Part shown: one piece after another, positions 1 through 10,248 of the stretch
Layout: the number at the start of each line of letters is the position of its first letter
Position numbering within the stretch: position 1 is the stretch's first letter
Source of the DNA: a virus
Lineage: Duplodnaviria; Heunggongvirae; Uroviricota; Caudoviricetes
Direction: 5' to 3' (one strand)
IMG/VR virus record: IMGVR_UViG_2663762839_000007
Coordinates: 1 to 10,248 of that record
Length of the DNA: 10,248 bases
Made by a program: the position numbers and the translations under genes
Notes under the pieces: generated by a model
What the model was told of the DNA's origin: nothing
Seen by the model: only the letters and a program-made list of their open reading frames with translations
The model's database searches: none

Positions 1-1
1 C

Positions 2-280
2 CAGCATATCGTCTGGTTCCCGCCAGTGAGCATTAATCTCCTGCTTACTATTTTGCTCGCGGTCGTTGCCGGTACAGTGGGATGCTTGCTGCGTCTTCCT
101 TCCAGCACGATGCTCATCCCGATGCTGGCGGGCGCAGTGCTCCAGTCTGGTCAGCTCATCACCATCGAACTACCGGAATGGCTGCTGGCGATGGCGTATA
201 TGGCAATTGGCTGGCGGATTGGTCTTGGTTTCGATACTATGATCATGTATAGTTGGTTGTCGTTTTGCCATGTGGTTTAG
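2..280 (+). CDS. AbrB-family (PF05145-like) membrane protein, partial: reading frame is open from the window start, so the 5' end lies outside the window; the last ~15 codons are AT-rich and probably not native
   Basis: Hydrophobic translation with the AbrB-repeat pattern LP...ML.GA.L...LPEWLL.A...IGW.IG.GF; host-like GC and codon use up to about position 235, then an abrupt AT-rich stretch before the stop at 278-280. Family assignment is from recalled motif pattern, not a search. Confidence 0.5.
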   Translation, partial: QHIVWFPPVSINLLLTILLAVVAGTVGCLLRLPSSTMLIPMLAGAVLQSGQLITIELPEWLLAMAYMAIGWRIGLGFDTMIMYSWLSFCHVV

Positions 281-291
281 AAGGTGATTGA

Positions 292-1446
292 TTGTGTGTC
301 GATCCTTACCTATCATTGGTTTTATTCCAAAATCGAATAATTGGTGCTAAAGAAGTGAACAAAATTTCAGCGGTGAGCTTATTTACTGGGGCAGGAGGGA
401 TGGATGTCGGTTTCTCTAATGCCGGGTTCCGAACAGTTTGGGCCAATGATATAGATAAGGATGCATGTGATACATTTAAGCTTAATCATGAATCACCTGT
501 TTTTTGTGGTGATATTGATGAGATGCTAAGTGAATTGTCTGGGCTGAAAAATATAGGTTGTGTTTTTGGTGGGCCTCCATGCCAAGGATTTTCTGTGGCA
601 GGGAAAATGGACGCTCATGATCCACGTAGTAAGCTGGTTATGTCATTCATGCGGGCGGTGGATATAATTCAACCAGAATGCTTTGTTATGGAGAATGTTA
701 AGGCTTTAGCACAGTTGTCCAAATTTGAACCAGTTAGGTGTGAACTGTTTAAGATGGCTGAAAAGTCAGGCTATCGTTCAGCCTTGCTGGTGCTGAATTC
801 TAAAGATTTTGGCGTTCCTCAGAATAGGGAACGTATGTTTTTTATAGGGTTTCGTTCCGAAAATGATGTGAAACGAGTTGAGGCGGCGATAAAAAAATAC
901 CAATATCTTTCGCCAACAGTTGGTGAGATTATTCGGCCTTTAGGGCGAGCGGGTAATCCAAATAATTCAAGAGTCTGTAATGCAAGGATTACAAATGCTG
1001 CTAAGCCAGTATTACGGAAGTCACCTTACGCGGGAATGATGTTTAACGGGCAGGGAAGACCAATTAACCCGAATGGGTATGCTTCAACTATAGCTGCTTC
1101 TATGGGGGGGAATAGGACACCAATTATTGATGAAGAACACCTTTATGATGGCTCAACAAGTTATGTTGAGACTTATCATAATCATCTAATGAATGGTGGT
1201 GAGCCAAAAGATATGCACGATGTACCTAGTCGTTTACGTCGACTAACGATAGATGAGGCTCTTTTGATTCAAACATTCCCGAGTAATTATGTCTTTGTGG
1301 GGAAAAATTCGTCAATTTGGCGTCAGATAGGGAATGCTGTGCCTTGTAAATTGGCGCAGGCTGTTGCTGCAGGGGTTTTGGATGTCCTTACTGGTAAAAC
1401 TATTAATGTTCAAAAGAGTCAAACAGAGTTGAGTTTGAATTCGTAA
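292..1446 (+). CDS. DNA (cytosine-5)-methyltransferase, no adjacent restriction endonuclease (orphan); start uncertain (TTG 292 after AAGGTGA, or GTG 355 giving a typical short N-terminus before motif I)
   Basis: All canonical C5-MTase motifs are visible in order: motif I LFTGAGGMDVGF, motif IV GGPPCQGFS (catalytic Cys), motif VI ENVKAL, motif VIII QNRERMFFIGF, a variable target-recognition region, then motif X GNAVP. The gene is clearly more AT-rich than the flanking phage and host DNA. Confidence 0.9.
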   Translation: MCVDPYLSLVLFQNRIIGAKEVNKISAVSLFTGAGGMDVGFSNAGFRTVWANDIDKDACDTFKLNHESPVFCGDIDEMLSELSGLKNIGCVFGGPPCQGFSVAGKMDAHDPRSKLVMSFMRAVDIIQPECFVMENVKALAQLSKFEPVRCELFKMAEKSGYRSALLVLNSKDFGVPQNRERMFFIGFRSENDVKRVEAAIKKYQYLSPTVGEIIRPLGRAGNPNNSRVCNARITNAAKPVLRKSPYAGMMFNGQGRPINPNGYASTIAASMGGNRTPIIDEEHLYDGSTSYVETYHNHLMNGGEPKDMHDVPSRLRRLTIDEALLIQTFPSNYVFVGKNSSIWRQIGNAVPCKLAQAVAAGVLDVLTGKTINVQKSQTELSLNS

Positions 1447-1602
1447 AACGGATCACATTTTCAAACCGATGGATGCAGAATTTAACATTGCTGCATGAGT
1501 TTGCATCTTGAAATCATAAGCTGTACTGCTTAGCTTGACCAGAATTGATGTGGGTAAGAAGTGGTTATGCACCCGCATTAAAACCGCCCCATTAAGCGGG
1601 CG

Positions 1603-1621
1603 GGCGAGGCGGGGAAAGCAC
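1603..1621. other. P2-type cos site (19-nt cohesive-end sequence GGCGAGGCGGGGAAAGCAC)
   Basis: Exact 19-mer that I recall as the P2 cohesive end, located just beyond the 3' end of the portal gene Q, as in P2. Recognition is from memory and needs alignment to confirm. Confidence 0.55.
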
Positions 1622-1763
1622 TGCGCGCTGGCGGTGGTGCTGATTTTATTTTTTCAGCGTCTGAGCGCGTCTTGATGGCGTTTAGATTGTGCACCGGGGC
1701 GTTGGTGTGTCTGCGGGCTGTTTTGTGCGGTGGTGAGTGTGTGAGGGCGTGATGACGGGGTGT

Positions 1764-1785
1764 AAAAAAGCCGCCCGCAGGCGGC
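1764..1785 (-). terminator. Rho-independent terminator after the P-Q operon
   Basis: On the minus strand, GCCGCC-TGCG-GGCGGC hairpin followed by TTTTTT, immediately downstream of the Q stop. Confidence 0.6.
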
Positions 1786-1790
1786 GATGT

Positions 1791-2825
1791 TCAGCCGTTG
1801 TCAGTGTCCAGTGAGTAGTTTTTAAAGCGGATGACCTCCTGACCGAGCCAGCCGTTTATCTCGCGGATCCTGTCCTGTAACGGGATAAGCTCATTGCGGA
1901 CAAAGACCTTTGCCACTTTCTCAATATCGCCCAGTGACCCGACGTTCTCCGGCTTGCCGCCCATCAACTGAAAGGGGATGCGGTGCGCGTCCAGCAGGTC
2001 AGCGGCGCTGGCTTTTTTGATATTAAAAAAATCGTCCTTCGTTGCCACTTCACTGAGCGGGATAATTTTGATGCCGTCGGCTTTCCCCTGTGGGGCATAG
2101 AGAAACAGATTTTTAAAGTTGTTGCGGCCTTTCGACTTCACCATGTTTTCGCGGAGCATTTCGATATCGTTGCGATCCTGCACGGCATCGGTGACGTACA
2201 TGATGTATCCGGCATGAGCGCCGTTTTCGTAATACTTGCGGCGGAACAGCGTGGCCGACTCATTCAGCCAGGCAGAGTTAAGGGCGCTGAGATATTCCGG
2301 CAGGCCGTACAGCTCCTGATTAATATCCGGCTCCAGCAGGTGAAACACGGAGCCGGGTGCGAAGGCTGTCGGCTCGTTGAAGGACGGCACCCACCAGTAA
2401 ACATCCTCTTCCACACCACGGCGGGTATATTTTGCCGGTGAGGTTTCCAGTCTGATGACCTTACCGGTGGTGCTGTAACGCTTTTCCAGAAATGCATTAC
2501 CGAATACCAGAAAATCCAGCACAAAGCGGCTGAAATCCTGTTGCGAAAGCCACGGATGCGGGATAAATGTCGAGGCCAGAATATTACGTTTGACGTAAAT
2601 CGGTGAGCTGTGATGCACGGCAGCACGCAGGCTTTTTGCCAGACCGGTAAAGCTGACCGGTGGCTCATACCATCTGCCGTTACTGATGCACTCGACGTAA
2701 TCCAGAATGTCACGGCGGTCGAGTACCGGCACCGGCTCACCAAAGGTGAATGCCTCCATTTTCGGGGCGCTGGCGGTCATTTTTTTTGCCGCAGGTTGCG
2801 GTGTTTTCCCTTTTTTCTTGCTCAT
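1791..2825 (-). CDS. Q: Portal vertex protein (P2 gpQ-like)
   Basis: 344-aa ORF matching the P2 gpQ sequence and length as recalled; its ATG overlaps the P stop (ATGA), indicating translational coupling. Confidence 0.92.
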   Translation of the reverse strand: MSKKKGKTPQPAAKKMTASAPKMEAFTFGEPVPVLDRRDILDYVECISNGRWYEPPVSFTGLAKSLRAAVHHSSPIYVKRNILASTFIPHPWLSQQDFSRFVLDFLVFGNAFLEKRYSTTGKVIRLETSPAKYTRRGVEEDVYWWVPSFNEPTAFAPGSVFHLLEPDINQELYGLPEYLSALNSAWLNESATLFRRKYYENGAHAGYIMYVTDAVQDRNDIEMLRENMVKSKGRNNFKNLFLYAPQGKADGIKIIPLSEVATKDDFFNIKKASAADLLDAHRIPFQLMGGKPENVGSLGDIEKVAKVFVRNELIPLQDRIREINGWLGQEVIRFKNYSLDTDNG

Positions 2826-4597
2826 CAGTAAAACTCCAGAATGGTGGATGTCAGCGGGGTGCTGATACCGGCGGTGAGTGGCTCATTTAACAGGGCGTGC
2901 ATGGTCGCCCAGGCGAGATCGGCGTGGCTGGCTTCCTCGCTGCGGCTGGCCTCATAGGTGGCGCTGCGTCCGCTGCTGGTCATGGTCTTGCGGATAGCCA
3001 TAAACGAGCTGGTGATGTCGGTGGCGCTGACGTCATATTCCAGACAGCCACGGCGAATAACGTCTTTTGCCTTGAGCACCATTGCGGTTTTCATTTCCGG
3101 CGTGTAGCGGATATCTCGCGCGGCGGGATAGAACGAGCGCACGAGCTGGAACACGCCGACACCGAGGCCGGTGGCATCAATACCGATGTATTCGACGTTG
3201 TATTTTTCGGTGAGTTTGCGGATGGATTCCGCCTGAGTGGCAAAGTCCATGCCTTTCCACTGGTGACGCTCAAGTATTCTGAATTTGCCACCGGCCACCA
3301 CCGGCGGTGCCAGCACCACGCATCCGGCGCTGTCGCCACGGTGTGACGGGTCGTAACCAATCCATACCGGGCGGGAGCCGAACGGATTCGCGGCAAACGG
3401 CGCATAGTCTTCCCATTCTTCCAGCGTGTCGACCATGCAGCGTTGCAGCTCCTCGAACGGGAACACCGACGCCTTGTCGTCAACAAATTCACACATGAAC
3501 AGGTTTTTAAAATCGTCGGCGCTGTTTTCACGTTTGAGCTGCTCAATGTCGAACAGTGTGCAGCCACCTTTCAGGGCATCCTCAATGGTGACAATCTGCC
3601 GCCACTGGCCGTCCGCACAGAGAAGACCTCCGGCAAGGGCGTTATGACTGACGTCGATTTCCACACGTTCGGCGGCGCTGGCGCGTCCCCGGTTGAACAG
3701 TTCACCCGACCAGAACGGGTAGGCGTCGTGCGCCAGCGTGGACGGGGTGGAGAAATAGGTCGAGCGCAGGTGACTCTGTGAGGCCATACCTGATGCCACC
3801 TTACGCAGTACCTGAAAATTCGGGATCCAGAAAATCTCGTCGACGTACAGGTCGCCGTTATGGCTCTGCGCGGTGTTGGAGTTGGTGCCGAGAAAAATCA
3901 GTTTTGCGCCGTTATTGCCCAGGACAATCGGGTCACCGGTCAGGTCAACGTCAACCAGCCGGGCAAAGGCGATGATGTATTCGCGGAACACATACGCCTG
4001 CGTTTTACTGGCCGACAGAAAAATCTGGTTATGACCGGTTTTCAGGGCGCGCAGCAGCGCCTCGCGGGAAAAATAAAACGTCGCGCCAATCTGGCGGGAT
4101 TTCAGGATATCGCGGATGCGGTGCTCAAGCCCGGCACGATACCAGTGCAACTGATAGTCGAAAGACTGCTCAAAGAAAATCTGCTCCAGCTTTTCGATGG
4201 CCTCGTCACTGAAAAAATTCTTTTTCGGTTTGCGCCGCCCGCCTTTGTTGCGGTTAGCGACGTTCGGATTAAGGTCTGCCTCGTTGCCGGTCTGACTGTA
4301 ACGGTTTACCCGTGCCAGTCGTTCAATCTGGCGTCCGAGCAGGTCAATTTCCTTGAAGTCACCGCCGGTTTTCTGCGGTTTGATGATGAGCTGGGTCAGC
4401 CGCGCTTCCAGACTCATTTCGACACGGCTGATGGGGGCAACGCTGTCCCAGCCGTCGCGCTGTTTCCAGCTCTGCACCGTCGGGCGTTTCATCTGCAACA
4501 TGGCGGCAATCTGCGGCACGGAAAATCCCTGCCAGTACAGCAGCGCCGCCTGACGACGCGGGTCGTGTAAAAGAGTGGTGTCTGTGGTGATGGTCAT
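2825..4597 (-). CDS. P: Terminase large (ATPase) subunit (P2 gpP-like)
   Basis: The six-frame ORF starts at a TTG at 4627, but the ATG at 4597 is preceded by GAGG at a 5-nt spacing and gives MTITTDTTLL and a 590-aa product, matching P2 gpP as recalled. Confidence 0.92.
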   Translation of the reverse strand: MTITTDTTLLHDPRRQAALLYWQGFSVPQIAAMLQMKRPTVQSWKQRDGWDSVAPISRVEMSLEARLTQLIIKPQKTGGDFKEIDLLGRQIERLARVNRYSQTGNEADLNPNVANRNKGGRRKPKKNFFSDEAIEKLEQIFFEQSFDYQLHWYRAGLEHRIRDILKSRQIGATFYFSREALLRALKTGHNQIFLSASKTQAYVFREYIIAFARLVDVDLTGDPIVLGNNGAKLIFLGTNSNTAQSHNGDLYVDEIFWIPNFQVLRKVASGMASQSHLRSTYFSTPSTLAHDAYPFWSGELFNRGRASAAERVEIDVSHNALAGGLLCADGQWRQIVTIEDALKGGCTLFDIEQLKRENSADDFKNLFMCEFVDDKASVFPFEELQRCMVDTLEEWEDYAPFAANPFGSRPVWIGYDPSHRGDSAGCVVLAPPVVAGGKFRILERHQWKGMDFATQAESIRKLTEKYNVEYIGIDATGLGVGVFQLVRSFYPAARDIRYTPEMKTAMVLKAKDVIRRGCLEYDVSATDITSSFMAIRKTMTSSGRSATYEASRSEEASHADLAWATMHALLNEPLTAGISTPLTSTILEFY

Positions 4598-4770
4598 GAA
4601 TACCTCGCCGTGATGAATACACGGCAAGGCTACTGAGTCGCGCCCTGCGATTCGCTAAGGTGCTGTTGTGTCAGTGATAAGCCATCCGGGACTGATGGCG
4701 GAGGATGCGCATCGTCGGGAAACTGATGCCGACATGTGACTCCTCTAATCACTATTCAGGACTCCTGACA
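4598..4770. promoter_or_regulatory. Divergent late-promoter region between P (leftward) and O (rightward), equivalent to the Ogr-dependent P2 promoters
   Basis: Position between divergently transcribed late operons as in P2; contains a near-direct repeat ACTGATGGCG (4691-4700) and ACTGATGCCG (4722-4731). I could not find a clean TGT-N12-ACA Ogr-type dyad, so no individual site is called. Confidence 0.45.
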
Positions 4771-5625
4771 ATGGCAAAAAAAGTCTCAAAATTCTTTCGT
4801 ATCGGCGTTGAGGGTGACACCTGTGACGGGCGTGTCATCAGTGCGCAGGATATTCAGGAAATGGCCGAAACCTTTGACCCGCGTGTCTACGGTTGCCGCA
4901 TTAACCTGGAACATCTGCGCGGCATCCTGCCTGACGGTATTTTTAAGCGTTATGGCGATGTGGCCGAACTGAAGGCCGAAAAGATTGACGATGATTCGGC
5001 GCTGAAAGGCAAATGGGCGCTGTTTGCGAAAATCACCCCGACCGATGACCTTATCGCGATGAACAAGGCCGCGCAGAAGGTCTACACCTCAATGGAAATT
5101 CAGCCGAACTTTGCCAACACCGGCAAATGTTATCTGGTGGGGCTGGCCGTTACCGATGACCCGGCAAGCCTCGGTACGGAATACCTGGAATTCTGCCGCA
5201 CGGTAAAACACAACCCCCTGAACCGCTTCAAATTAAGCCCTGAAAACCTGATTTCAGTGGCAACGCCTGTTGAGCTGGAATTTGAAGACCTGCCTGAAAC
5301 CGTGTTCACCGCCCTGACCGAAAAGGTGAAATCCATTTTTGGCCGCAAACAGGCCAGCGATGACGCCCGTCTGAATGACGTGCATGAAGCGGTGACCGCT
5401 GTTGCTGAACATGTGCAGGAAAAACTGAGCGCCACTGAGCAGCGCCTCGCTGAGATGGAAACTGCCTTTTCCGCTCTTAAGCAGGAGGTGACTGACAGGG
5501 CGGATGAAACCAGCCAGGCATTCACCCGCCTGAAAAACAGCCTCGACCACACCGAAAGTCTGACCCAGCAGCGCCGCAGCAAGGCCACCGGCGGTGGCGG
5601 TGACGCGCTGATGACGAACTGCTGA
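4771..5625 (+). CDS. O: Capsid scaffolding protein (P2 gpO-like)
   Basis: The ORF track starts at 4705, but the ATG at 4771 gives MAKKVSKFFRIGVEGDTCDG and a 284-aa product, matching P2 gpO as recalled. Confidence 0.9.
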   Translation: MAKKVSKFFRIGVEGDTCDGRVISAQDIQEMAETFDPRVYGCRINLEHLRGILPDGIFKRYGDVAELKAEKIDDDSALKGKWALFAKITPTDDLIAMNKAAQKVYTSMEIQPNFANTGKCYLVGLAVTDDPASLGTEYLEFCRTVKHNPLNRFKLSPENLISVATPVELEFEDLPETVFTALTEKVKSIFGRKQASDDARLNDVHEAVTAVAEHVQEKLSATEQRLAEMETAFSALKQEVTDRADETSQAFTRLKNSLDHTESLTQQRRSKATGGGGDALMTNC

Positions 5626-5683
5626 CCGGCGTCAGTCAGTCCGGGAAAACCTTCACGATTAACCCTTAATTTCAGGAAAAACT

Positions 5684-6757
5684 ATGCGCCAGGAAACCCG
5701 CTTTAAATTTAATGCCTACCTGTCCCGTGTTGCCGAACTGAACGGCATCGACGCCGGTGATGTGTCGAAAAAATTCACCGTTGAACCGTCGGTCACCCAG
5801 ACCCTGATGAACACCATGCAGGAGTCCTCTGACTTTCTGACCCGCATCAACATTGTGCCGGTCAGCGAAATGAAAGGGGAAAAAATTGGCATCGGTGTCA
5901 CCGGCTCCATCGCCAGCACCACCGACACCGCCGGTGGCACCGAGCGTCAGCCGAAGGACTTCTCGAAGCTGGCGTCAAACAAGTACGAATGCGACCAGAT
6001 TAACTTCGATTTTTATATCCGCTACAAAACGCTGGACCTGTGGGCGCGTTATCAGGATTTCCAGCTCCGTGTCCGTAACGCCATTATCAAACGCCAGTCC
6101 CTTGATTTAATCATGGCCGGTTTTAACGGCGTGAGGCGTGCCGAAACCTCTGACCGCAGCAGCAATCCGATGCTGCAGGATGTGGCGGTCGGCTGGCTGC
6201 AGAAATACCGCAATGAAGCCCCGGCGCGCGTGATGAGCAAGGTCACTGACGAGGAAGGTCACACGACCTCTGAGGTTATCCGCGTGGGTAAGGGCGGTGA
6301 TTATGCCAGCCTTGACGCACTGGTGATGGATGCGACCAACAACCTGATTGAGCCGTGGTATCAGGAAGACCCTGACCTTGTGGTGATTGTGGGACGTCAG
6401 CTACTGGCGGACAAGTATTTTCCCATCGTCAACAAGGAGCAGGACAACAGCGAAATGCTGGCCGCTGACGTCATCATCAGCCAGAAACGCATCGGTAACC
6501 TGCCGGCGGTACGCGTCCCGTACTTCCCGGCGGATGCGATGCTCATCACGAAGCTGGAAAACCTGTCCATCTACTACATGGATGACAGCCATCGCCGCGT
6601 GATTGAGGAAAACCCGAAACTCGACCGCGTGGAGAACTACGAGTCAATGAACATTGATTACGTGGTGGAAGACTACGCCGCCGGTTGTCTGGTGGAAAAA
6701 ATTAAGGTCGGTGATTTCTCCACACCGGCTAAGGCGACCGCAGAGCCGGGAGCGTAA
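5684..6757 (+). CDS. N: Major capsid protein (P2 gpN-like)
   Basis: 357-aa ORF with an AGGAAA ribosome-binding site; sequence and length match P2 gpN as recalled. Confidence 0.92.
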   Translation: MRQETRFKFNAYLSRVAELNGIDAGDVSKKFTVEPSVTQTLMNTMQESSDFLTRINIVPVSEMKGEKIGIGVTGSIASTTDTAGGTERQPKDFSKLASNKYECDQINFDFYIRYKTLDLWARYQDFQLRVRNAIIKRQSLDLIMAGFNGVRRAETSDRSSNPMLQDVAVGWLQKYRNEAPARVMSKVTDEEGHTTSEVIRVGKGGDYASLDALVMDATNNLIEPWYQEDPDLVVIVGRQLLADKYFPIVNKEQDNSEMLAADVIISQKRIGNLPAVRVPYFPADAMLITKLENLSIYYMDDSHRRVIEENPKLDRVENYESMNIDYVVEDYAAGCLVEKIKVGDFSTPAKATAEPGA

Positions 6758-6760
6758 CCG

Positions 6761-7504
6761 ATGACGAGTCCCGCACAGCGCCACATGATGCGGGTCTCGG
6801 CAGCGATGACCGCGCAGCGGGAAGCCGCCCCGCTGCGACATGCAACTGTCTATGAGCAGATGCTGGTTAAGCTCGCCGCAGACCAGCGCACACTGAAAGC
6901 GATTTATTCAAAAGAGCTGAAGGCTGCGAAAAAACGCGAACTGCTGCCGTTCTGGTTGCCGTGGGTGAACGGTGTGCTTGAGCAGGGCAAAGGTGCACAG
7001 GATGACATTCTGATGACGGTCATGCTGTGGCGTCTGGATACCGGCGATATTGCCGGTGCGCTGGAGATTGCCCGTTATGCCCTGAAGTACGGTCTGACCA
7101 TGCCGGGTAAACACCGTCGCACCCCGCCGTACATGTTCACCGAGGAGGTGGCGCTCGCGGCCATGCGCGCCCACGCTGCCGGTGAGTCTGTGGATCCCCG
7201 CCTGCTGACGGACACCCTCGAACTGACCGCCACGGCTGACATGCCTGATGAAGTGCGCGCAAAGCTGCACAAAATCACCGGTCTGTTTCTGCGTGACGCT
7301 GGTGATGCCGCAGGGGCGCTGGCGCACCTGCAACGTGCGACACAGCTCGACTGTCAGGCAGGCGTCAAAAAAGAGATTGAACGACTGGAGCGGGAGCTGA
7401 AACCGAAGCCGGAGCCGCAGCCCAAAGCGGCCACCCGCGCCCCGCGTAAGACCCGGAGCGTGACACCGGCAAAACGTGGACGCCCGAAAAAGAAAGCCAG
7501 TTAA
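6761..7504 (+). CDS. M: Terminase small (endonuclease) subunit (P2 gpM-like)
   Basis: 247-aa ORF starting 3 nt after the N stop, with a basic C-terminal tail; matches P2 gpM as recalled. Confidence 0.9.
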   Translation: MTSPAQRHMMRVSAAMTAQREAAPLRHATVYEQMLVKLAADQRTLKAIYSKELKAAKKRELLPFWLPWVNGVLEQGKGAQDDILMTVMLWRLDTGDIAGALEIARYALKYGLTMPGKHRRTPPYMFTEEVALAAMRAHAAGESVDPRLLTDTLELTATADMPDEVRAKLHKITGLFLRDAGDAAGALAHLQRATQLDCQAGVKKEIERLERELKPKPEPQPKAATRAPRKTRSVTPAKRGRPKKKAS

Positions 7505-7603
7505 CAACCGAATGCGCCCCGCGCCAGGGCGGCACGCCGGTCAGTGAGGGTGAATCACCTGACACTGCACCGGCGTCCACCGCCCGACTTTTCAGAGGTA
7601 GTC

Positions 7604-8113
7604 ATGATGACGCTGATTATTCCGCGAAAGGAGGCTCCCGTGTCCGGTGAGGGTACGGTGGTCATCCCGCAACCGGCAGGCGACGAGCCGGTGATTAAAA
7701 ACACGTTCTTTTTTCCCGATATCGACCCGAAGCGCGTCCGGGAACGTATGCGCCTTGAGCAGACCGTCGCCCCCGCCCGTCTGCGTGAGGCCATCAAGTC
7801 AGGCATGGCTGAAACGAATGCGGAGCTGTACGAGTACCGCGAACAGAAAATTGCCGCCGGTTTTACGCGTCTGGCTGACGTCCCGGCGGACGACATCGAC
7901 GGTGAAAGCATCAAAGTTTTTTACTACGAGCGCGCCGTGTGTGCGATGGCGACCGCGTCGCTTTATGAGCGTTATCGCGGCGTGGATGCCAGTGCGAAAG
8001 GCGACAAGAAGGCCGACAGCATTGACAGCACCATTGATGAGCTGTGGCGGGATATGCGCTGGGCAGTGGCGCGCATCCAGGACAAGCCACGCTGCATCGT
8101 GAGTCAAATCTGA
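7604..8113 (+). CDS. L: Head completion/stabilisation protein (P2 gpL-like)
   Basis: The ATG at 7604 is preceded by GAGG and gives MMTLIIPRKEAP and 169 aa, the P2 gpL length as recalled; the longer ORF from 7544 has no ribosome-binding site. Confidence 0.88.
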   Translation: MMTLIIPRKEAPVSGEGTVVIPQPAGDEPVIKNTFFFPDIDPKRVRERMRLEQTVAPARLREAIKSGMAETNAELYEYREQKIAAGFTRLADVPADDIDGESIKVFYYERAVCAMATASLYERYRGVDASAKGDKKADSIDSTIDELWRDMRWAVARIQDKPRCIVSQI

Positions 8114-8316
8114 TGAAGACCTTTGCGCTACAGGGCGACACGCTCGACGCCATTTGTGTCCGGTATTACGGGCGCACTGAGGGCGTGGTCGAAGCCGTGC
8201 TCGCCGCAAATCCGGGACTGGCTGAACTGGGCGCGGTGCTGCCGCACGGCACCGCCGTCGAACTGCCCGACGTTCAGACCGCGCCCGTGGCTGAAACTGT
8301 CAATCTGTGGGAGTAA
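8113..8316 (+). CDS. X: Tail protein X (P2 gpX-like)
   Basis: 67-aa product MKTFALQGDTLDAIC...; its ATG overlaps the L stop (ATGA), as in P2. Confidence 0.85.
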   Translation: MKTFALQGDTLDAICVRYYGRTEGVVEAVLAANPGLAELGAVLPHGTAVELPDVQTAPVAETVNLWE

Positions 8317-8319
8317 CGC

Positions 8320-8547
8320 ATGACAGCAGAAGAAAAAAGCGTCCTGTCGCTTTTCATGATTGGGGTGCTGATTGTTGTCGGCAAGGTGCTTGCCGGTGGT
8401 GAACCCATCACCCCGCGTCTGTTTATCGGGCGCATGTTGCTCGGTGGTTTTGTCTCGATGGTTGCCGGTGTTGTTCTGGTGCAGTTTCCTGACCTGTCAT
8501 TGCCTGCGGTGTGCGGCATCGGCTCCATGCTGGGTATCGCCGGTTAA
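8320..8547 (+). CDS. Y: Holin (P2 gpY-like), probably C-terminally truncated
   Basis: 75-aa product with three hydrophobic segments; the ORF stops inside the third segment with no charged C-terminal tail. I recall P2 gpY as about 93 aa. The stop is followed directly by the ribosome-binding site and start of U. Confidence 0.6.
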   Translation: MTAEEKSVLSLFMIGVLIVVGKVLAGGEPITPRLFIGRMLLGGFVSMVAGVVLVQFPDLSLPAVCGIGSMLGIAG

Positions 8548-8561
8548 GGAGGTGACGAAAA

Positions 8562-9011
8562 ATGATGCTCGCGTTAGGTATGTTTGTTTTTATGCGCCAG
8601 ACGCTGCCACACCAGACCATGCAGCGTGAATCAGATTATCGCTGGCCGTCAAATTCCCGTATCGGCAAACGGGATGCCTTTCAGTTTCTCGGTGTGGGTG
8701 AGGAAAACATCACGCTTGCCGGTGTGCTTTATCCCGAACTGACCGGCGGAAAGCTGACGATGACCACGCTCAGGCTGATGGCAGAGGAGGGGCGGGCGTG
8801 GCCGTTGCTGGATGGCACCGGCATGATTTACGGCATGTATGTCATCAGCAGGGTGAGTGAAACAGGGAGTATTTTCTTTGCAGACGGCACACCCCGGAAA
8901 ATTGATTTTACGCTGTCACTCACCCGCGTTGATGAATCACTGGCCGCGCTTTATGGCGATATCGGTATGCCAGCATGCCGCACATGCGCGTACAAGCCGC
9001 TATATCACTGA
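8562..9011 (+). CDS. U: Tail protein U (P2 gpU-like) with a non-native 3' end that reads out of frame into ogr
   Basis: AAGGAGGTGA ribosome-binding site before the ATG at 8562. The first ~135 aa look like gpU; the last 14 codons (MPACRTCAYKPLYH) are the ogr zinc-finger region read in another frame, and gene D is absent. Confidence 0.7.
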   Translation: MMLALGMFVFMRQTLPHQTMQRESDYRWPSNSRIGKRDAFQFLGVGEENITLAGVLYPELTGGKLTMTTLRLMAEEGRAWPLLDGTGMIYGMYVISRVSETGSIFFADGTPRKIDFTLSLTRVDESLAALYGDIGMPACRTCAYKPLYH

Positions 9012-9168
9012 CACGACAAAAGAGCGTTATCACCAGTGTCAGAACGTGAATTGCAGCGCCACGTTCATCACTTATGAGTCGGTACAGCGATACATCGTGA
9101 AGCCGGGAGAAGTCCACGCCGTAAGGCCGCACCCATTGCCGTCAGGGCAGCAAATTATGTGGATGTAA
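8953..9168 (+). CDS. ogr: Ogr/Delta-family zinc-finger late-gene activator, N-terminally altered (possible pseudogene)
   Basis: Translation from ATG 8953 gives MAISVCQHAAHARTSRYITDTTKERYHQCQNVNCSATF..., matching P2 Ogr from Cys7 onward as recalled. The N-terminal MFHCPLC is replaced by MAISVC, so the first cysteine of the C4 finger is missing, and no ribosome-binding site precedes the ATG. Confidence 0.75.
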   Translation: MAISVCQHAAHARTSRYITDTTKERYHQCQNVNCSATFITYESVQRYIVKPGEVHAVRPHPLPSGQQIMWM

Positions 9169-9180
9169 TTACAAACAGAA

Positions 9181-9208
9181 AGCCCCCTCAGTCGAGGGGG
9201 CTTTTTTG
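9181..9208 (+). terminator. Rho-independent terminator downstream of ogr
   Basis: AGCCCCCTC-AGTC-GAGGGGGCT perfect 9-bp stem followed by TTTTTT, 13 nt after the ogr stop. Confidence 0.85.
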
Positions 9209-9270
9209 TCGATGTGGTCAATGTGTGGACGTGACCAGAAATAAATCCTTTTATTTCATGTGATTAGATA

Positions 9271-9297
9271 TCAAAAAATGTCACCAATAACTGACAT
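9271..9297 (-). pseudogene. pflA: pflA 5' remnant: start codon plus four codons (MSVIG) fused to unrelated sequence, stop after 8 codons
   Basis: Minus strand reads GGAGAAACACCGCA-ATG TCA GTT ATT GGT, a ribosome-binding site followed by the MSVIG start I recall for E. coli PflA, lying 191 bp downstream of the pflB stop. Homology ends after codon 5 (GAC ATT TTT TGA). Confidence 0.6.
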
Positions 9298-9419
9298 TGC
9301 GGTGTTTCTCCAGATGTGGCCCATCTGAGGCCGTGTTGGTGCGCAGCTCGAAGGCTACGTCGAGTCTGTTTTGGCAGTCACCTTAAAGTATAGATAGCTG
9401 ACAAAAAAGGCTCTCGTGC

Positions 9420-9445
9420 TAAAAAAGGCCCCACTTTCGTGGAGC
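9420..9445 (-). terminator. Rho-independent terminator downstream of pflB
   Basis: On the minus strand, GGCTCCAC-GAAA-GTGGGGCC hairpin followed by TTTTTT, about 45 nt after the pflB stop. Confidence 0.7.
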
Positions 9446-9488
9446 CTTTATTGTACGCTTTTTACTGTACGATTTCAGTCAAATCTAA

Positions 9489-10248
9489 TTACATAGATTG
9501 AGTGAAGGTACGAGTAATAACGTCCTGCTGCTGTTCTTTAGTCAGCGAGTTGAAACGTACTGCGTAGCCAGATACACGGATGGTCAGCTGCGGATATTTT
9601 TCCGGGTTTTCCATCGCGTCAAGCAGCATTTCACGGTTCATCACGTTAACGTTCAGGTGCTGACCACCTTCGATGGATGCTTCGTGGTGGAAGTAACCAT
9701 CCATCAGACCTGCCAGGTTGGTCTTACGAACTTCGTCGTCTTTACCCAGTGCGTTCGGAACGATAGAGAAGGTGTAGGAGATACCATCTTTAGCGTAAGC
9801 AAACGGCAGTTTAGCAACGGAAGTCAGAGACGCTACAGCACCTTTCTGGTCACGACCGTGCATCGGGTTAGCACCCGGTCCGAACGGCGCGCCAGCACGA
9901 CGACCGTCTGGGGTGTTACCAGTTTTCTTACCATACACAACGTTAGACGTGATGGTCAGAACAGACTGAGTCGGGATAGCGTCACGGTAGGTGTGCAGTT
10001 TCTGAATTTTCTTCATGAAACGTTCTACCAGGTCAACAGCCAGGTCATCTACACGCGGATCGTTGTTACCAAACTGCGGGTATTCGCCTTCGATTTCGAA
10101 GTCGATAGCCAGACCGTCTTCGTCACGAATCGGTTTAACTTTCGCATATTTGATTGCAGACAGGGAGTCAGCAGCAACGGACAGACCAGCGATACCACAC
10201 GCCATGGTGCGGATAACGTCACGGTCGTGCAGCGCCATCAGAGAGGCT
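9489..10248 (-). CDS. pflB: Pyruvate formate-lyase (glycyl radical enzyme), C-terminal ~250 codons; the 5' end lies beyond the window
   Basis: Translation ends ...[34 protein letters not shown], containing the glycyl-radical motif RVSGYAV and the PflB C-terminus as recalled; codon usage is strongly E. coli-like and the frame stays open to the window end. Confidence 0.88.

What the first reader, a model, noticed from the sequence alone, without database searches (positions are those of the whole stretch)
1603..8316. Tail-less remnant keeps a complete head and packaging module plus cos
Q, P, O, N, M and L all appear full length, with plausible ribosome-binding sites and P2-like start/stop overlaps, and the cos sequence is retained. 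In contrast the tail, lysis, replication and integration functions are gone. Random decay would not be expected to leave one module untouched, so this may be recent, or the module may be maintained. One hypothesis is that Ogr or Delta supplied by a superinfecting P2-like phage or P4-like satellite could switch on the late promoters and produce capsids and terminase that act on the resident cos. A single chromosomal cos is not by itself enough for P2-type packaging, so any mobilisation would need a second cos in the same orientation.
Basis: inference. Interest (0 to 1): 0.5.

Follow-up and report, generated by a model that had tools for sequence, protein, structure and literature searches.

The report
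Freshly truncated P2-like prophage remnant
This is an ordinary, very recently damaged P2-type prophage whose head and DNA-packaging genes are still perfect only because there has been no time for them to decay, not because the bacterium is keeping them.

Summary
Q, P, O, N, M and L (and the tail gene X) are full length and 98.4-100% identical to phage P2 proteins. The 19-base cos and the P/O late-promoter region are P2-like. ogr lacks its first six codons.

The "maintained module" reading is not supported. Window 237-8546 differs by one synonymous base in 8,310 from intact prophages that still carry lysis and tail genes. The U'-'ogr junction is found in only one NCBI assembly and one read-set assembly. 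Close relatives carry deletions that hit the head genes instead. Three random events of the observed sizes would spare the head block about 9% of the time.

The window is an entire 10,248-bp draft contig. Its left end joins phage DNA to the middle of abrB, in an orientation that needs a roughly 200-kb inversion or an assembly error. So "replication and integration functions are gone" cannot be concluded.

Helper activation of the late promoters by Ogr or P4 delta is plausible from established biology but untested.

Side result: the lysis/tail deletion starts at a spot in the holin gene (codon 75/76) that has been a deletion endpoint at least ten independent times in other P2-like prophages. 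The cause is unexplained.

The parts
1..236 (+). Internal piece of the host gene abrB (gene positions about 510-745), ending at junction J1 (236/237). There is no microhomology at the junction.
   Evidence: 99.6% identical to abrB in essentially all E. coli genomes. Junction sequence read. abrB and pflB lie on the same strand about 225 kb apart in strain KFu022, but on opposite strands here.
237..271 (-). First 35 nt of the helix-turn-helix (controller-type) gene of a SacI-family restriction-modification cassette. The rest of that gene and the restriction gene are absent from the contig.
   Evidence: Alignment to intact prophages L002, L017 and L026, where HTH and RE_SacI genes sit to the left.
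292..1446 (+). Intact DNA cytosine-5 methyltransferase, carried in the P2 old/tin variable hotspot.
   Evidence: Pfam PF00145, E=1e-66. The exact 348-aa form is seen on 397 contigs. Hotspot concept from PMC9122126.
1603..1621 (+). P2-type cos cohesive-end sequence, GGCGAGGCGGGGAAAGCAC.
   Evidence: One exact match; 0.01 expected by chance. Flanks align to the joined P2 ends.
1770..1785 (-). Terminator of the P-Q operon (tQ).
   Evidence: Terminator scan. Corresponds to the tQ annotation of P2.
1791..2825 (-). Q, portal protein, 344 aa, intact.
   Evidence: 341/344 identical to P2. The exact allele is listed in 21,017 blocks of the assembly collection.
2825..4597 (-). P, terminase large (ATPase) subunit, 590 aa, intact.
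   Evidence: 590/590 identical to P2 gpP. The exact allele is listed in 31,909 blocks.
4598..4770 (.). Divergent late promoters PP and PO, with the activator (Ogr/delta) binding site at 4661-4691.
   Evidence: 172/173 identical to P2 2994-3166; the activator site is identical.
4771..5625 (+). O, scaffold/protease, 284 aa, intact, carrying the rare A145V allele.
   Evidence: This allele is on only 5-8 contigs, four of which are intact prophages with the same methylase cassette.
5684..6757 (+). N, major capsid protein, 357 aa, intact.
   Evidence: 353/357 identical to P2. Exact allele on at least 1000 contigs.
6761..7504 (+). M, terminase small (endonuclease) subunit, 247 aa, intact.
   Evidence: 243/247 identical to P2. 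Exact allele on at least 1000 contigs.
7604..8113 (+). L, head completion protein, 169 aa, intact.
   Evidence: 168/169 identical to P2. Exact allele on at least 1000 contigs.
8113..8316 (+). X, tail (baseplate) protein, 67 aa, intact.
   Evidence: 66/67 identical to P2. Pfam PF05489.
8320..8547 (+). Y', holin truncated after codon 75. Junction J2 lies in the microhomology CGGTTA at 8541-8546 and joins Y to the last bases of T, deleting about 15.3 kb of lysis and tail genes.
   Evidence: The junction is reproduced at 100% identity in the independent Logan assembly L006.
8562..9011 (+). U' open reading frame. It is native U up to codon 135 (8562-8967), then runs out of frame into 'ogr. Junction J3 lies at the microhomology TA (8966-8967) and deletes about 1.3 kb (the end of U, all of D, and the ogr promoter and start).
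   Evidence: The 149-aa product is found only in this contig and in Logan ERR738831.
8968..9168 (+). 'ogr, codons 7-72 only. It has no start codon, lacks Cys4 and has no promoter, so it is taken as non-functional.
   Evidence: Translation; comparison with P2 Ogr.
9179..9204 (+). ogr / F-operon terminator, followed by the attR region up to the host gene.
   Evidence: Terminator scan. Same order as in L001 and L003.
9489..10248 (-). 3' end of the host gene pflB, running off the contig. This is the right flank of a common P2-like attachment site.
   Evidence: 385 complete E. coli genomes match at least 80% of window 8400-10248.

Best explanation
The window holds a recently truncated, non-functional P2-like (Peduovirus) prophage at the pflA-pflB attachment site.

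Shown: two illegitimate deletions with short microhomology removed the other lysis and tail genes between Y and T (Y codon 75 to the end of T, about 15.3 kb) and the end of U, all of D and the start of ogr (about 1.3 kb).

Shown: a third breakpoint, 35 nt into the controller gene of the phage's restriction-modification cassette, is joined to the middle of abrB. Inferred: this reflects either a roughly 200-kb chromosomal inversion, which would leave int, C, cox, B, A and the restriction gene elsewhere in the genome, or a chimeric contig end.

Inferred: the head and packaging block, cos and the late promoters are intact because the events are evolutionarily very recent, not because they are selected.

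Inferred from established P2/P4 biology, not tested: with ogr destroyed, the late operons are silent unless a superinfecting P2-like phage (Ogr) or a P4-like satellite (delta) supplies an activator. In that case P, Q, O, N, M, L, X, Y' and U' would be made. They could complement or recombine with the incoming phage. The remnant alone cannot make tails, lyse the cell or be packaged from its single cos.
For: - All six head and packaging proteins are full length and 98.4-100% identical to P2. cos and the late-promoter region are conserved.
- Window 237-8546 is 8309/8310 identical to intact prophages L168, L169 and L170, which carry Y, K, lysA/B/C, R, S, V, W, J and I. L171 is identical over 237-8129. 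The single difference (8415) is a synonymous third-position change.
- J2 and J3 have 6-nt and 2-nt microhomology and no insertion sequence. Both are reproduced in an independent assembly.
- The U'-'ogr fusion product occurs in only this contig plus one Logan run. No complete E. coli genome among 5,426 carries the arrangement.
- Related prophages show deletions that remove head genes instead: L019 P'->M', L025 P'->I, L023 O'->sheath', L011 N'->U, and L175/L176, which lack O and N.
- Random placement of the three events spares the cos-L block with probability about 0.09.
- ogr lacks codons 1-6 and is out of frame with U'.
Against: - Recency makes selection undetectable rather than excluding it.
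- The left endpoint of the large deletion is a recurrent breakpoint just downstream of the head module. The boundary is therefore not random, and selection for the retained part cannot be ruled out from sequence alone.
- J1 rests on a single contig and could not be confirmed independently.
- No expression or packaging data exist.
Confidence: 0.85

Rival explanations
1. The host maintains the head, terminase and cos block as a helper-inducible capsid and packaging resource, for example to mobilise DNA or to serve satellites.
For: Every gene, the cos site and the Ogr/delta-responsive promoter region are intact. An independent remnant, L174, has the same architecture: O, N, M, L, X, Y' and then 'ogr. 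P2 prophage functions can package cos-bearing DNA in trans when delta is supplied (PMC9942202).
Against: Divergence from intact phages is essentially zero, so intactness carries no information about selection. The remnant is private to one assembly. Relatives lose head genes freely. There is no tail, no lysis function, no activator and only one cos in the contig. The junctions leave truncated gene stubs typical of accidental deletion.
Confidence: 0.05
2. It is a capsid-forming satellite (cfPICI-like), or a nascent P2-derived satellite, that makes its own heads and steals tails.
For: There is a superficial resemblance: capsid, portal, both terminase subunits, a head completion protein and a packaging site, without a tail module (definition in PMC10085698).
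Against: No integrase, regulator or primase-replicase is in the contig. [quoted passage not shown] The sequence is 99.99% that of an ordinary complete phage.
Confidence: 0.02
3. The abrB-phage junction (J1) is a chimeric contig end. If so, the true left neighbour of the methylase may simply be the rest of the prophage (controller gene, restriction gene, A, B, cox, C, int).
For: Only 236 bases of abrB sit at the extreme end of a draft contig. The orientation is incompatible with a simple deletion. The junction has no microhomology. No other genome or assembly shows it.
Against: De Bruijn assemblers seldom create junctions without a shared k-mer. A single inversion with ends in abrB and in the controller gene explains the structure exactly. 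The searches that failed to find it elsewhere had little power.
Confidence: 0.3

Closest known systems
Defective or cryptic P2-like (Peduovirus) prophages of E. coli, such as the ogrK remnant of K-12 and the defective P2-related prophage of E. coli B (from own knowledge), and the defective P2 elements described in PMC13586616
   Same: P2 gene order, P2 cos, P2 late-promoter region, position next to a P2-type attachment site, an internal deletion pattern, and a retained cargo gene from the variable hotspot.
   Different: This particular combination of junctions is private to one isolate. It is unusually young: one synonymous change in 8.3 kb. Its left side is joined to a distant host gene.
Bacteriophage P2 itself (NC_001895)
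   Same: Q, P, O, N, M, L and X are 98.4-100% identical. cos is identical. The P/O control region is 172/173 identical.
   Different: The contig lacks K, lysA/B/C, R, S, V, W, J, I, H, G, FI, FII, E, T and D, a functional ogr, and int, C, cox, B and A. It carries a methylase instead of old/tin and uses a different attachment site (pflA-pflB).
Capsid-forming PICI satellites (PMC10085698)
   Same: The logic of heads and packaging without tails.
   Different: No integrase, regulator or replication module. A tail gene and a holin remnant are present. The capsid genes are those of a complete phage lineage rather than a satellite lineage.
Engineered P2 helper lysogens used to package cosmids (PMC9942202)
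   Same: Chromosomal P2 late genes switched on in trans by P4 delta can package cos-bearing DNA.
   Different: Those helpers keep tails and lysis genes and have cos removed. This remnant is the reverse: cos is kept and tails and lysis are lost.

Membership tests
P2-like (Peduovirus) prophage | P2-type 19-nt cos next to a leftward Q-P operon and a rightward O-N-M-L operon | tested here: met
   Exact cos at 1603-1621. Gene order and orientation as in P2. Pfam families PF04860, PF06056/PF03237/PF17289, PF05929, PF05125, PF05944 and PF05926.
P2-like (Peduovirus) prophage | Activator-dependent divergent late promoters between P and O | tested here: met
   172/173 identical to P2 2994-3166, including the annotated activator-binding site. 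Function was not assayed.
P2-like (Peduovirus) prophage | Complete set of lysis, tail, regulatory, replication and integration genes (a functional prophage) | tested here: not met
   K through T and D are deleted, ogr is truncated, and int, C, cox, B and A are not in the contig. It is therefore filed as a defective remnant, not a phage.
Capsid-forming PICI | Integrase, regulator (AlpA/MerR type) and primase-replicase adjacent to the capsid module | tested here: not met
   None appears among the called genes or the Pfam hits of the contig. Definition from PMC10085698.
Capsid-forming PICI | Absence of tail and holin genes | tested here: not met
   X (PF05489) is intact, and Y' (PF04550) and U' (PF06995) are present.
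P4-like satellite | P4 core genes (primase alpha, delta, sid, psu, integrase) | tested here: not met
   No such genes are in the ORF list or the Pfam results.
Type II restriction-modification system (SacI family, controller-regulated) | Methyltransferase together with the restriction endonuclease and the controller protein | tested here: not met
   Only the methyltransferase is intact. The controller gene is cut after 35 nt and the endonuclease is not in the contig. Intact relatives have all three.
Domesticated prophage module under purifying selection | Conservation across lineages beyond the neutral expectation | tested here: inconclusive
   The remnant is private and differs by one synonymous base from intact phages. 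There is no divergence on which selection could be measured.

The most novel reading that the evidence does not exclude
P2-like prophages may carry a sequence-determined deletion hotspot at the end of the holin's last membrane segment (GGTATCGCCGGTTATC, Y codons 72-76). This hotspot would repeatedly convert them into non-lytic derivatives. Because it lies just downstream of the head module, it would bias decay toward remnants that keep an Ogr/delta-inducible capsid, terminase and cos cassette, like this window and L174. Whether such remnants are then exploited, as capsid donors, recombination reservoirs or decoys, is open.
Probability: 0.4. Interest if true: 0.45.

Novelty: new member of a known kind. 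Interest (0 to 1): 0.2.

Why it matters
The finding mainly serves as a caution. An intact module inside a prophage remnant is not evidence of domestication when the remnant is only a few mutations away from a live phage. A draft contig also cannot show that the missing modules have left the genome.

The recurrent breakpoint in the holin gene is of modest interest. If it is mutational, it shows that prophage decay is not uniform and that some remnant architectures arise repeatedly for mechanical reasons.

Tried and rejected
- An exact search for the J1 junction in one genome per species found nothing. That collection holds only one E. coli genome, so the power was low.
- Look-ups of the AbrB'-fusion peptide were uninformative. 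The exact sequence is not in the collection, and a homology search returned no fusion.
- No paper mentions the accessions.
- Scans of viral contigs for the holin junction found 0, against at least 120 wild-type sites. The sample is too small to judge a variant at roughly 0.3% frequency.
- A composite BLAST query of six junctions failed, because the tool merged the repeated left halves.
- The Y->V junction alone is in 0 of 5,426 complete genomes.
- A hairpin at the holin breakpoint is rejected: folding energy is no better than shuffles, z about 0.
- A pseudo-origin for the P2 A nickase is rejected: the ori nick sequence GCGCCTCG/GAGTCC is unlike GGTTA/TC.
- A circular contig is rejected: there is no terminal overlap.
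- Rfam found no RNA family.
- Integron-type, invertase-type, Chi-type and restriction-site explanations for the hotspot were considered from sequence inspection only. None fitted all junctions.
Full report
**What the window is.** The 10,248 bases are identical to, and span the whole of, contig CDRI01000239.1 of the draft assembly GCA_000946855.1. No complete E. coli genome among 5,426 contains the whole arrangement; the best covers 85% in three pieces. The contig carries, in order:
- 236 bases from the middle of the host gene abrB;
- the first 35 nt of a helix-turn-helix gene and an intact DNA cytosine methyltransferase, both from a SacI-type restriction-modification cassette that sits in the variable region of some P2-like phages;
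- cos, then Q and P on the minus strand;
- O, N, M, L and X on the plus strand;
- a truncated holin Y', a truncated U' and a truncated ogr;
- the ogr terminator and attR region, and finally the 3' end of pflB.

**Check of the observation.** Against phage P2 (NC_001895), identical residues out of the P2 length are Q 341/344, P 590/590, O 283/284, N 353/357, M 243/247, L 168/169 and X 66/67. Each has the P2 length, an ATG start and no internal stop, and Pfam gives the expected families. The P2 cohesive-end 19-mer occurs once, exactly, at 1603-1621 (0.01 expected by chance), and its flanks align with the joined ends of P2. The 173-base P-O intergenic region differs from P2 at one base, and the annotated activator-binding site is identical. 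X is an additional intact gene, and Y', U' and 'ogr are fragments.

**How the remnant was made.** Alignment to intact relatives defines three junctions.
- J2 joins Y, just after codon 75, to the last bases of T. It lies within the six-base microhomology CGGTTA and removes about 15.3 kb, covering the lysis and tail genes from K to T.
- J3 joins U codon 135 to ogr codon 7. It lies within the two-base microhomology TA and removes about 1.3 kb: the end of U, all of D, and the ogr promoter and start.
- The surviving ogr sequence encodes residues 7-72, is out of frame with U' and has no start codon. The resident activator is therefore dead.
- J2 and J3 are reproduced at 100% identity in a separately assembled contig from read set ERR738831 (L006). 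They are not artefacts of one assembler.

**The left junction and what it means.** J1 (236/237) joins abrB position 745 to the phage without microhomology. In a normal E. coli chromosome, abrB and pflB lie on the same strand about 225 kb apart. In the contig they are on opposite strands. A simple deletion cannot give that. A single inversion with one end in abrB and the other in the phage controller gene gives exactly the observed structure. Such an inversion would leave the other half of the prophage (the rest of the controller gene, the restriction gene, A, B, cox, C, int) next to nei, about 200 kb away. From general knowledge, the interval also holds essential genes, which argues against deletion.

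Alternatively, the 236 terminal bases are a chimeric contig end. I could not confirm J1 elsewhere. The statement that replication and integration functions are gone therefore holds for the contig only.

**Recent or maintained?**
- Looking up the rare O allele (A145V, on 5-8 contigs) led to prophages with the same methylase cassette that are intact through Y, K, lysA/B/C, R, S, V, W, J and I. Window 237-8546 is 8309/8310 identical to three of them, and identical over 237-8129 to a fourth. The one difference, at 8415, is a third-position change in a proline codon. There are no amino-acid differences from a complete phage in 8.3 kb, so intact reading frames say nothing about selection.
- The exact P and Q proteins are among the commonest alleles in public assemblies (31,909 and 21,017 index blocks). 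N, M, L and X are each on at least 1,000 contigs. In contrast, the U'-'ogr fusion product is seen only in this contig and the Logan run.
- Relatives found through the methylase or terminase look-ups carry other deletions that destroy the head module: P'->M' (L019), P'->I (L025), O'->sheath' (L023), N'->U (L011) and loss of O and N (L175/L176).
- If two deletions of the observed sizes and one breakpoint are placed at random on a 33-kb prophage, the cos-L block survives with probability about 0.09. That is not rare, given the many remnants in public data.

**How it would work.** This part is inference from established knowledge. P2 late promoters need Ogr. P4 delta is an Ogr homologue that activates P2 late genes, and chromosomal P2 late genes induced in this way can package cos-bearing DNA (PMC7552001, PMC9942202). 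With ogr destroyed and the promoter region intact, the remnant should be silent until a P2-like phage or a P4-like satellite enters. P and Q, and O, N, M, L, X, Y' and U', would then be transcribed up to the ogr terminator. The products could complement or recombine with the incoming phage. The remnant cannot make tails or lyse the cell. Only one cos is present in the contig, so it cannot be packaged as a unit. None of this was tested.

**Comparison with known systems.** This is a defective Peduovirus prophage, a well known kind. A recent survey also reports defective P2 elements with intact cargo genes and no fixed pattern of core-gene loss (PMC13586616). The methylase lies in the old/tin variable hotspot described for P2-like phages (PMC9122126). 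The remnant is not a capsid-forming PICI. Those have integrase, regulator and primase-replicase modules and lack tail and holin genes (PMC10085698). This contig has none of the former and has X, Y' and U'.

**An unexpected side result.** The exact 75-residue Y' of the window occurs on 36 contigs (82 index blocks). In the places shown it is joined to different partners: V, H, R, S, the region upstream of E, and, in the window, the end of T. All these junctions read ...GCCGGTTA|A..., with 0 to 7 bases of microhomology. The Y-to-V junction occurs in two backgrounds that differ by nearby SNPs.

A homology survey of holin variants gave roughly 33 distinct truncation or fusion classes that break between codons 55 and 93. 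About a third of them break at codon 75/76. These include Y-to-ogr (L174), a second Y-to-S junction (L175) and Y-to-lysB/C (L177), confirmed at nucleotide level within GGTTATC. They also include one Y-to-sheath fusion in a lineage with only 89% holin identity.

L174 is an independent remnant that keeps O, N, M, L, X and Y'. It uses the same ogr breakpoint (TTTA|TGCCAG) as the window's J3. A smaller cluster of breaks lies at codons 72-73, in the neighbouring GGTATC.

The boundary just downstream of the head module is therefore a recurrent deletion endpoint. That helps explain why tail-less, head-retaining remnants arise. I could not explain the hotspot. There is no significant hairpin and no resemblance to the P2 origin nick site. 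The site overlaps a match to the IHF consensus (TATCAGGTGATTG), and by my own reading of the sequence it coincides with the end of the predicted last membrane helix. A protein-bound or bent-DNA effect, or selection on the truncated holin, both remain possible.

**Verdict.** The 'recent' reading is supported and the 'maintained' reading is not. The loss of replication and integration genes is unproven. The helper-activation idea is plausible but ordinary. Interest is low, apart from the modestly interesting recurrent holin breakpoint.

Noticed in passing
window 8541-8546 (Y codon 75/76); loci L039-L047, L174, L175, L177: The left end of the lysis/tail deletion is a recurrent breakpoint. At least ten independent partner classes join at GGTTA(TC) in the holin gene: V, H, R, two sites in S, upstream of E, the end of T, ogr, lysB/C, and a sheath fusion seen only at protein level. 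About a third of roughly 33 holin truncation classes break there. A smaller cluster lies at codons 72-73 (GGTATC). The mechanism is unknown.
   Followed up: partly
window 236/237: Phage DNA is joined to the middle of abrB, in an orientation opposite to that expected from the normal chromosome. This implies a roughly 200-kb inversion or a chimeric contig end. It disrupts abrB at about codon 248.
   Followed up: partly
window 237-1446: The cytosine methyltransferase of a SacI-family restriction-modification cassette is intact. Its controller gene is cut after 35 nt and the endonuclease is not in the contig. The methylase is either an orphan or separated from its partner.
   Followed up: partly
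L174 (Logan SRR15178042), 1-4322: An independent remnant has the same architecture (O, N, M, L, X, Y', then 'ogr). It was formed by a single deletion from the holin hotspot to the very ogr position (TTTA|TGCCAG) that the window uses at J3.
   Followed up: partly
L001 (E. coli KFu022, NZ_CP091677.1), about 14950-15160: At the same pflB attachment site there is a prophage that keeps replication, head and lysis genes plus R, U, D and ogr, but has lost S through T. This is another tail-less form. Its left break lies in the S sequence GACCGGCTG, the same spot used as the right partner in L043.
   Followed up: partly
window 5203-5205 (O codon 145): The rare gpO allele A145V (5-8 contigs) marks the lineage. 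It led to the intact relatives L168-L171, which are 99.99-100% identical to the window.
   Followed up: yes
L006 (Logan ERR738831_252) = window 5178-9600: The k-mer-based Logan contig ends inside O and 111 bases into pflB, although both are single-copy here. This may mean that the read set holds another sequence sharing these k-mers, for example a second P2-like element. I could not check this.
   Followed up: no
window 8562-9011: U' keeps the whole Pfam GpU domain. After the deletion it sits directly behind Y', so it would now be transcribed from the O-operon promoter rather than from the lost F promoter.
   Followed up: no
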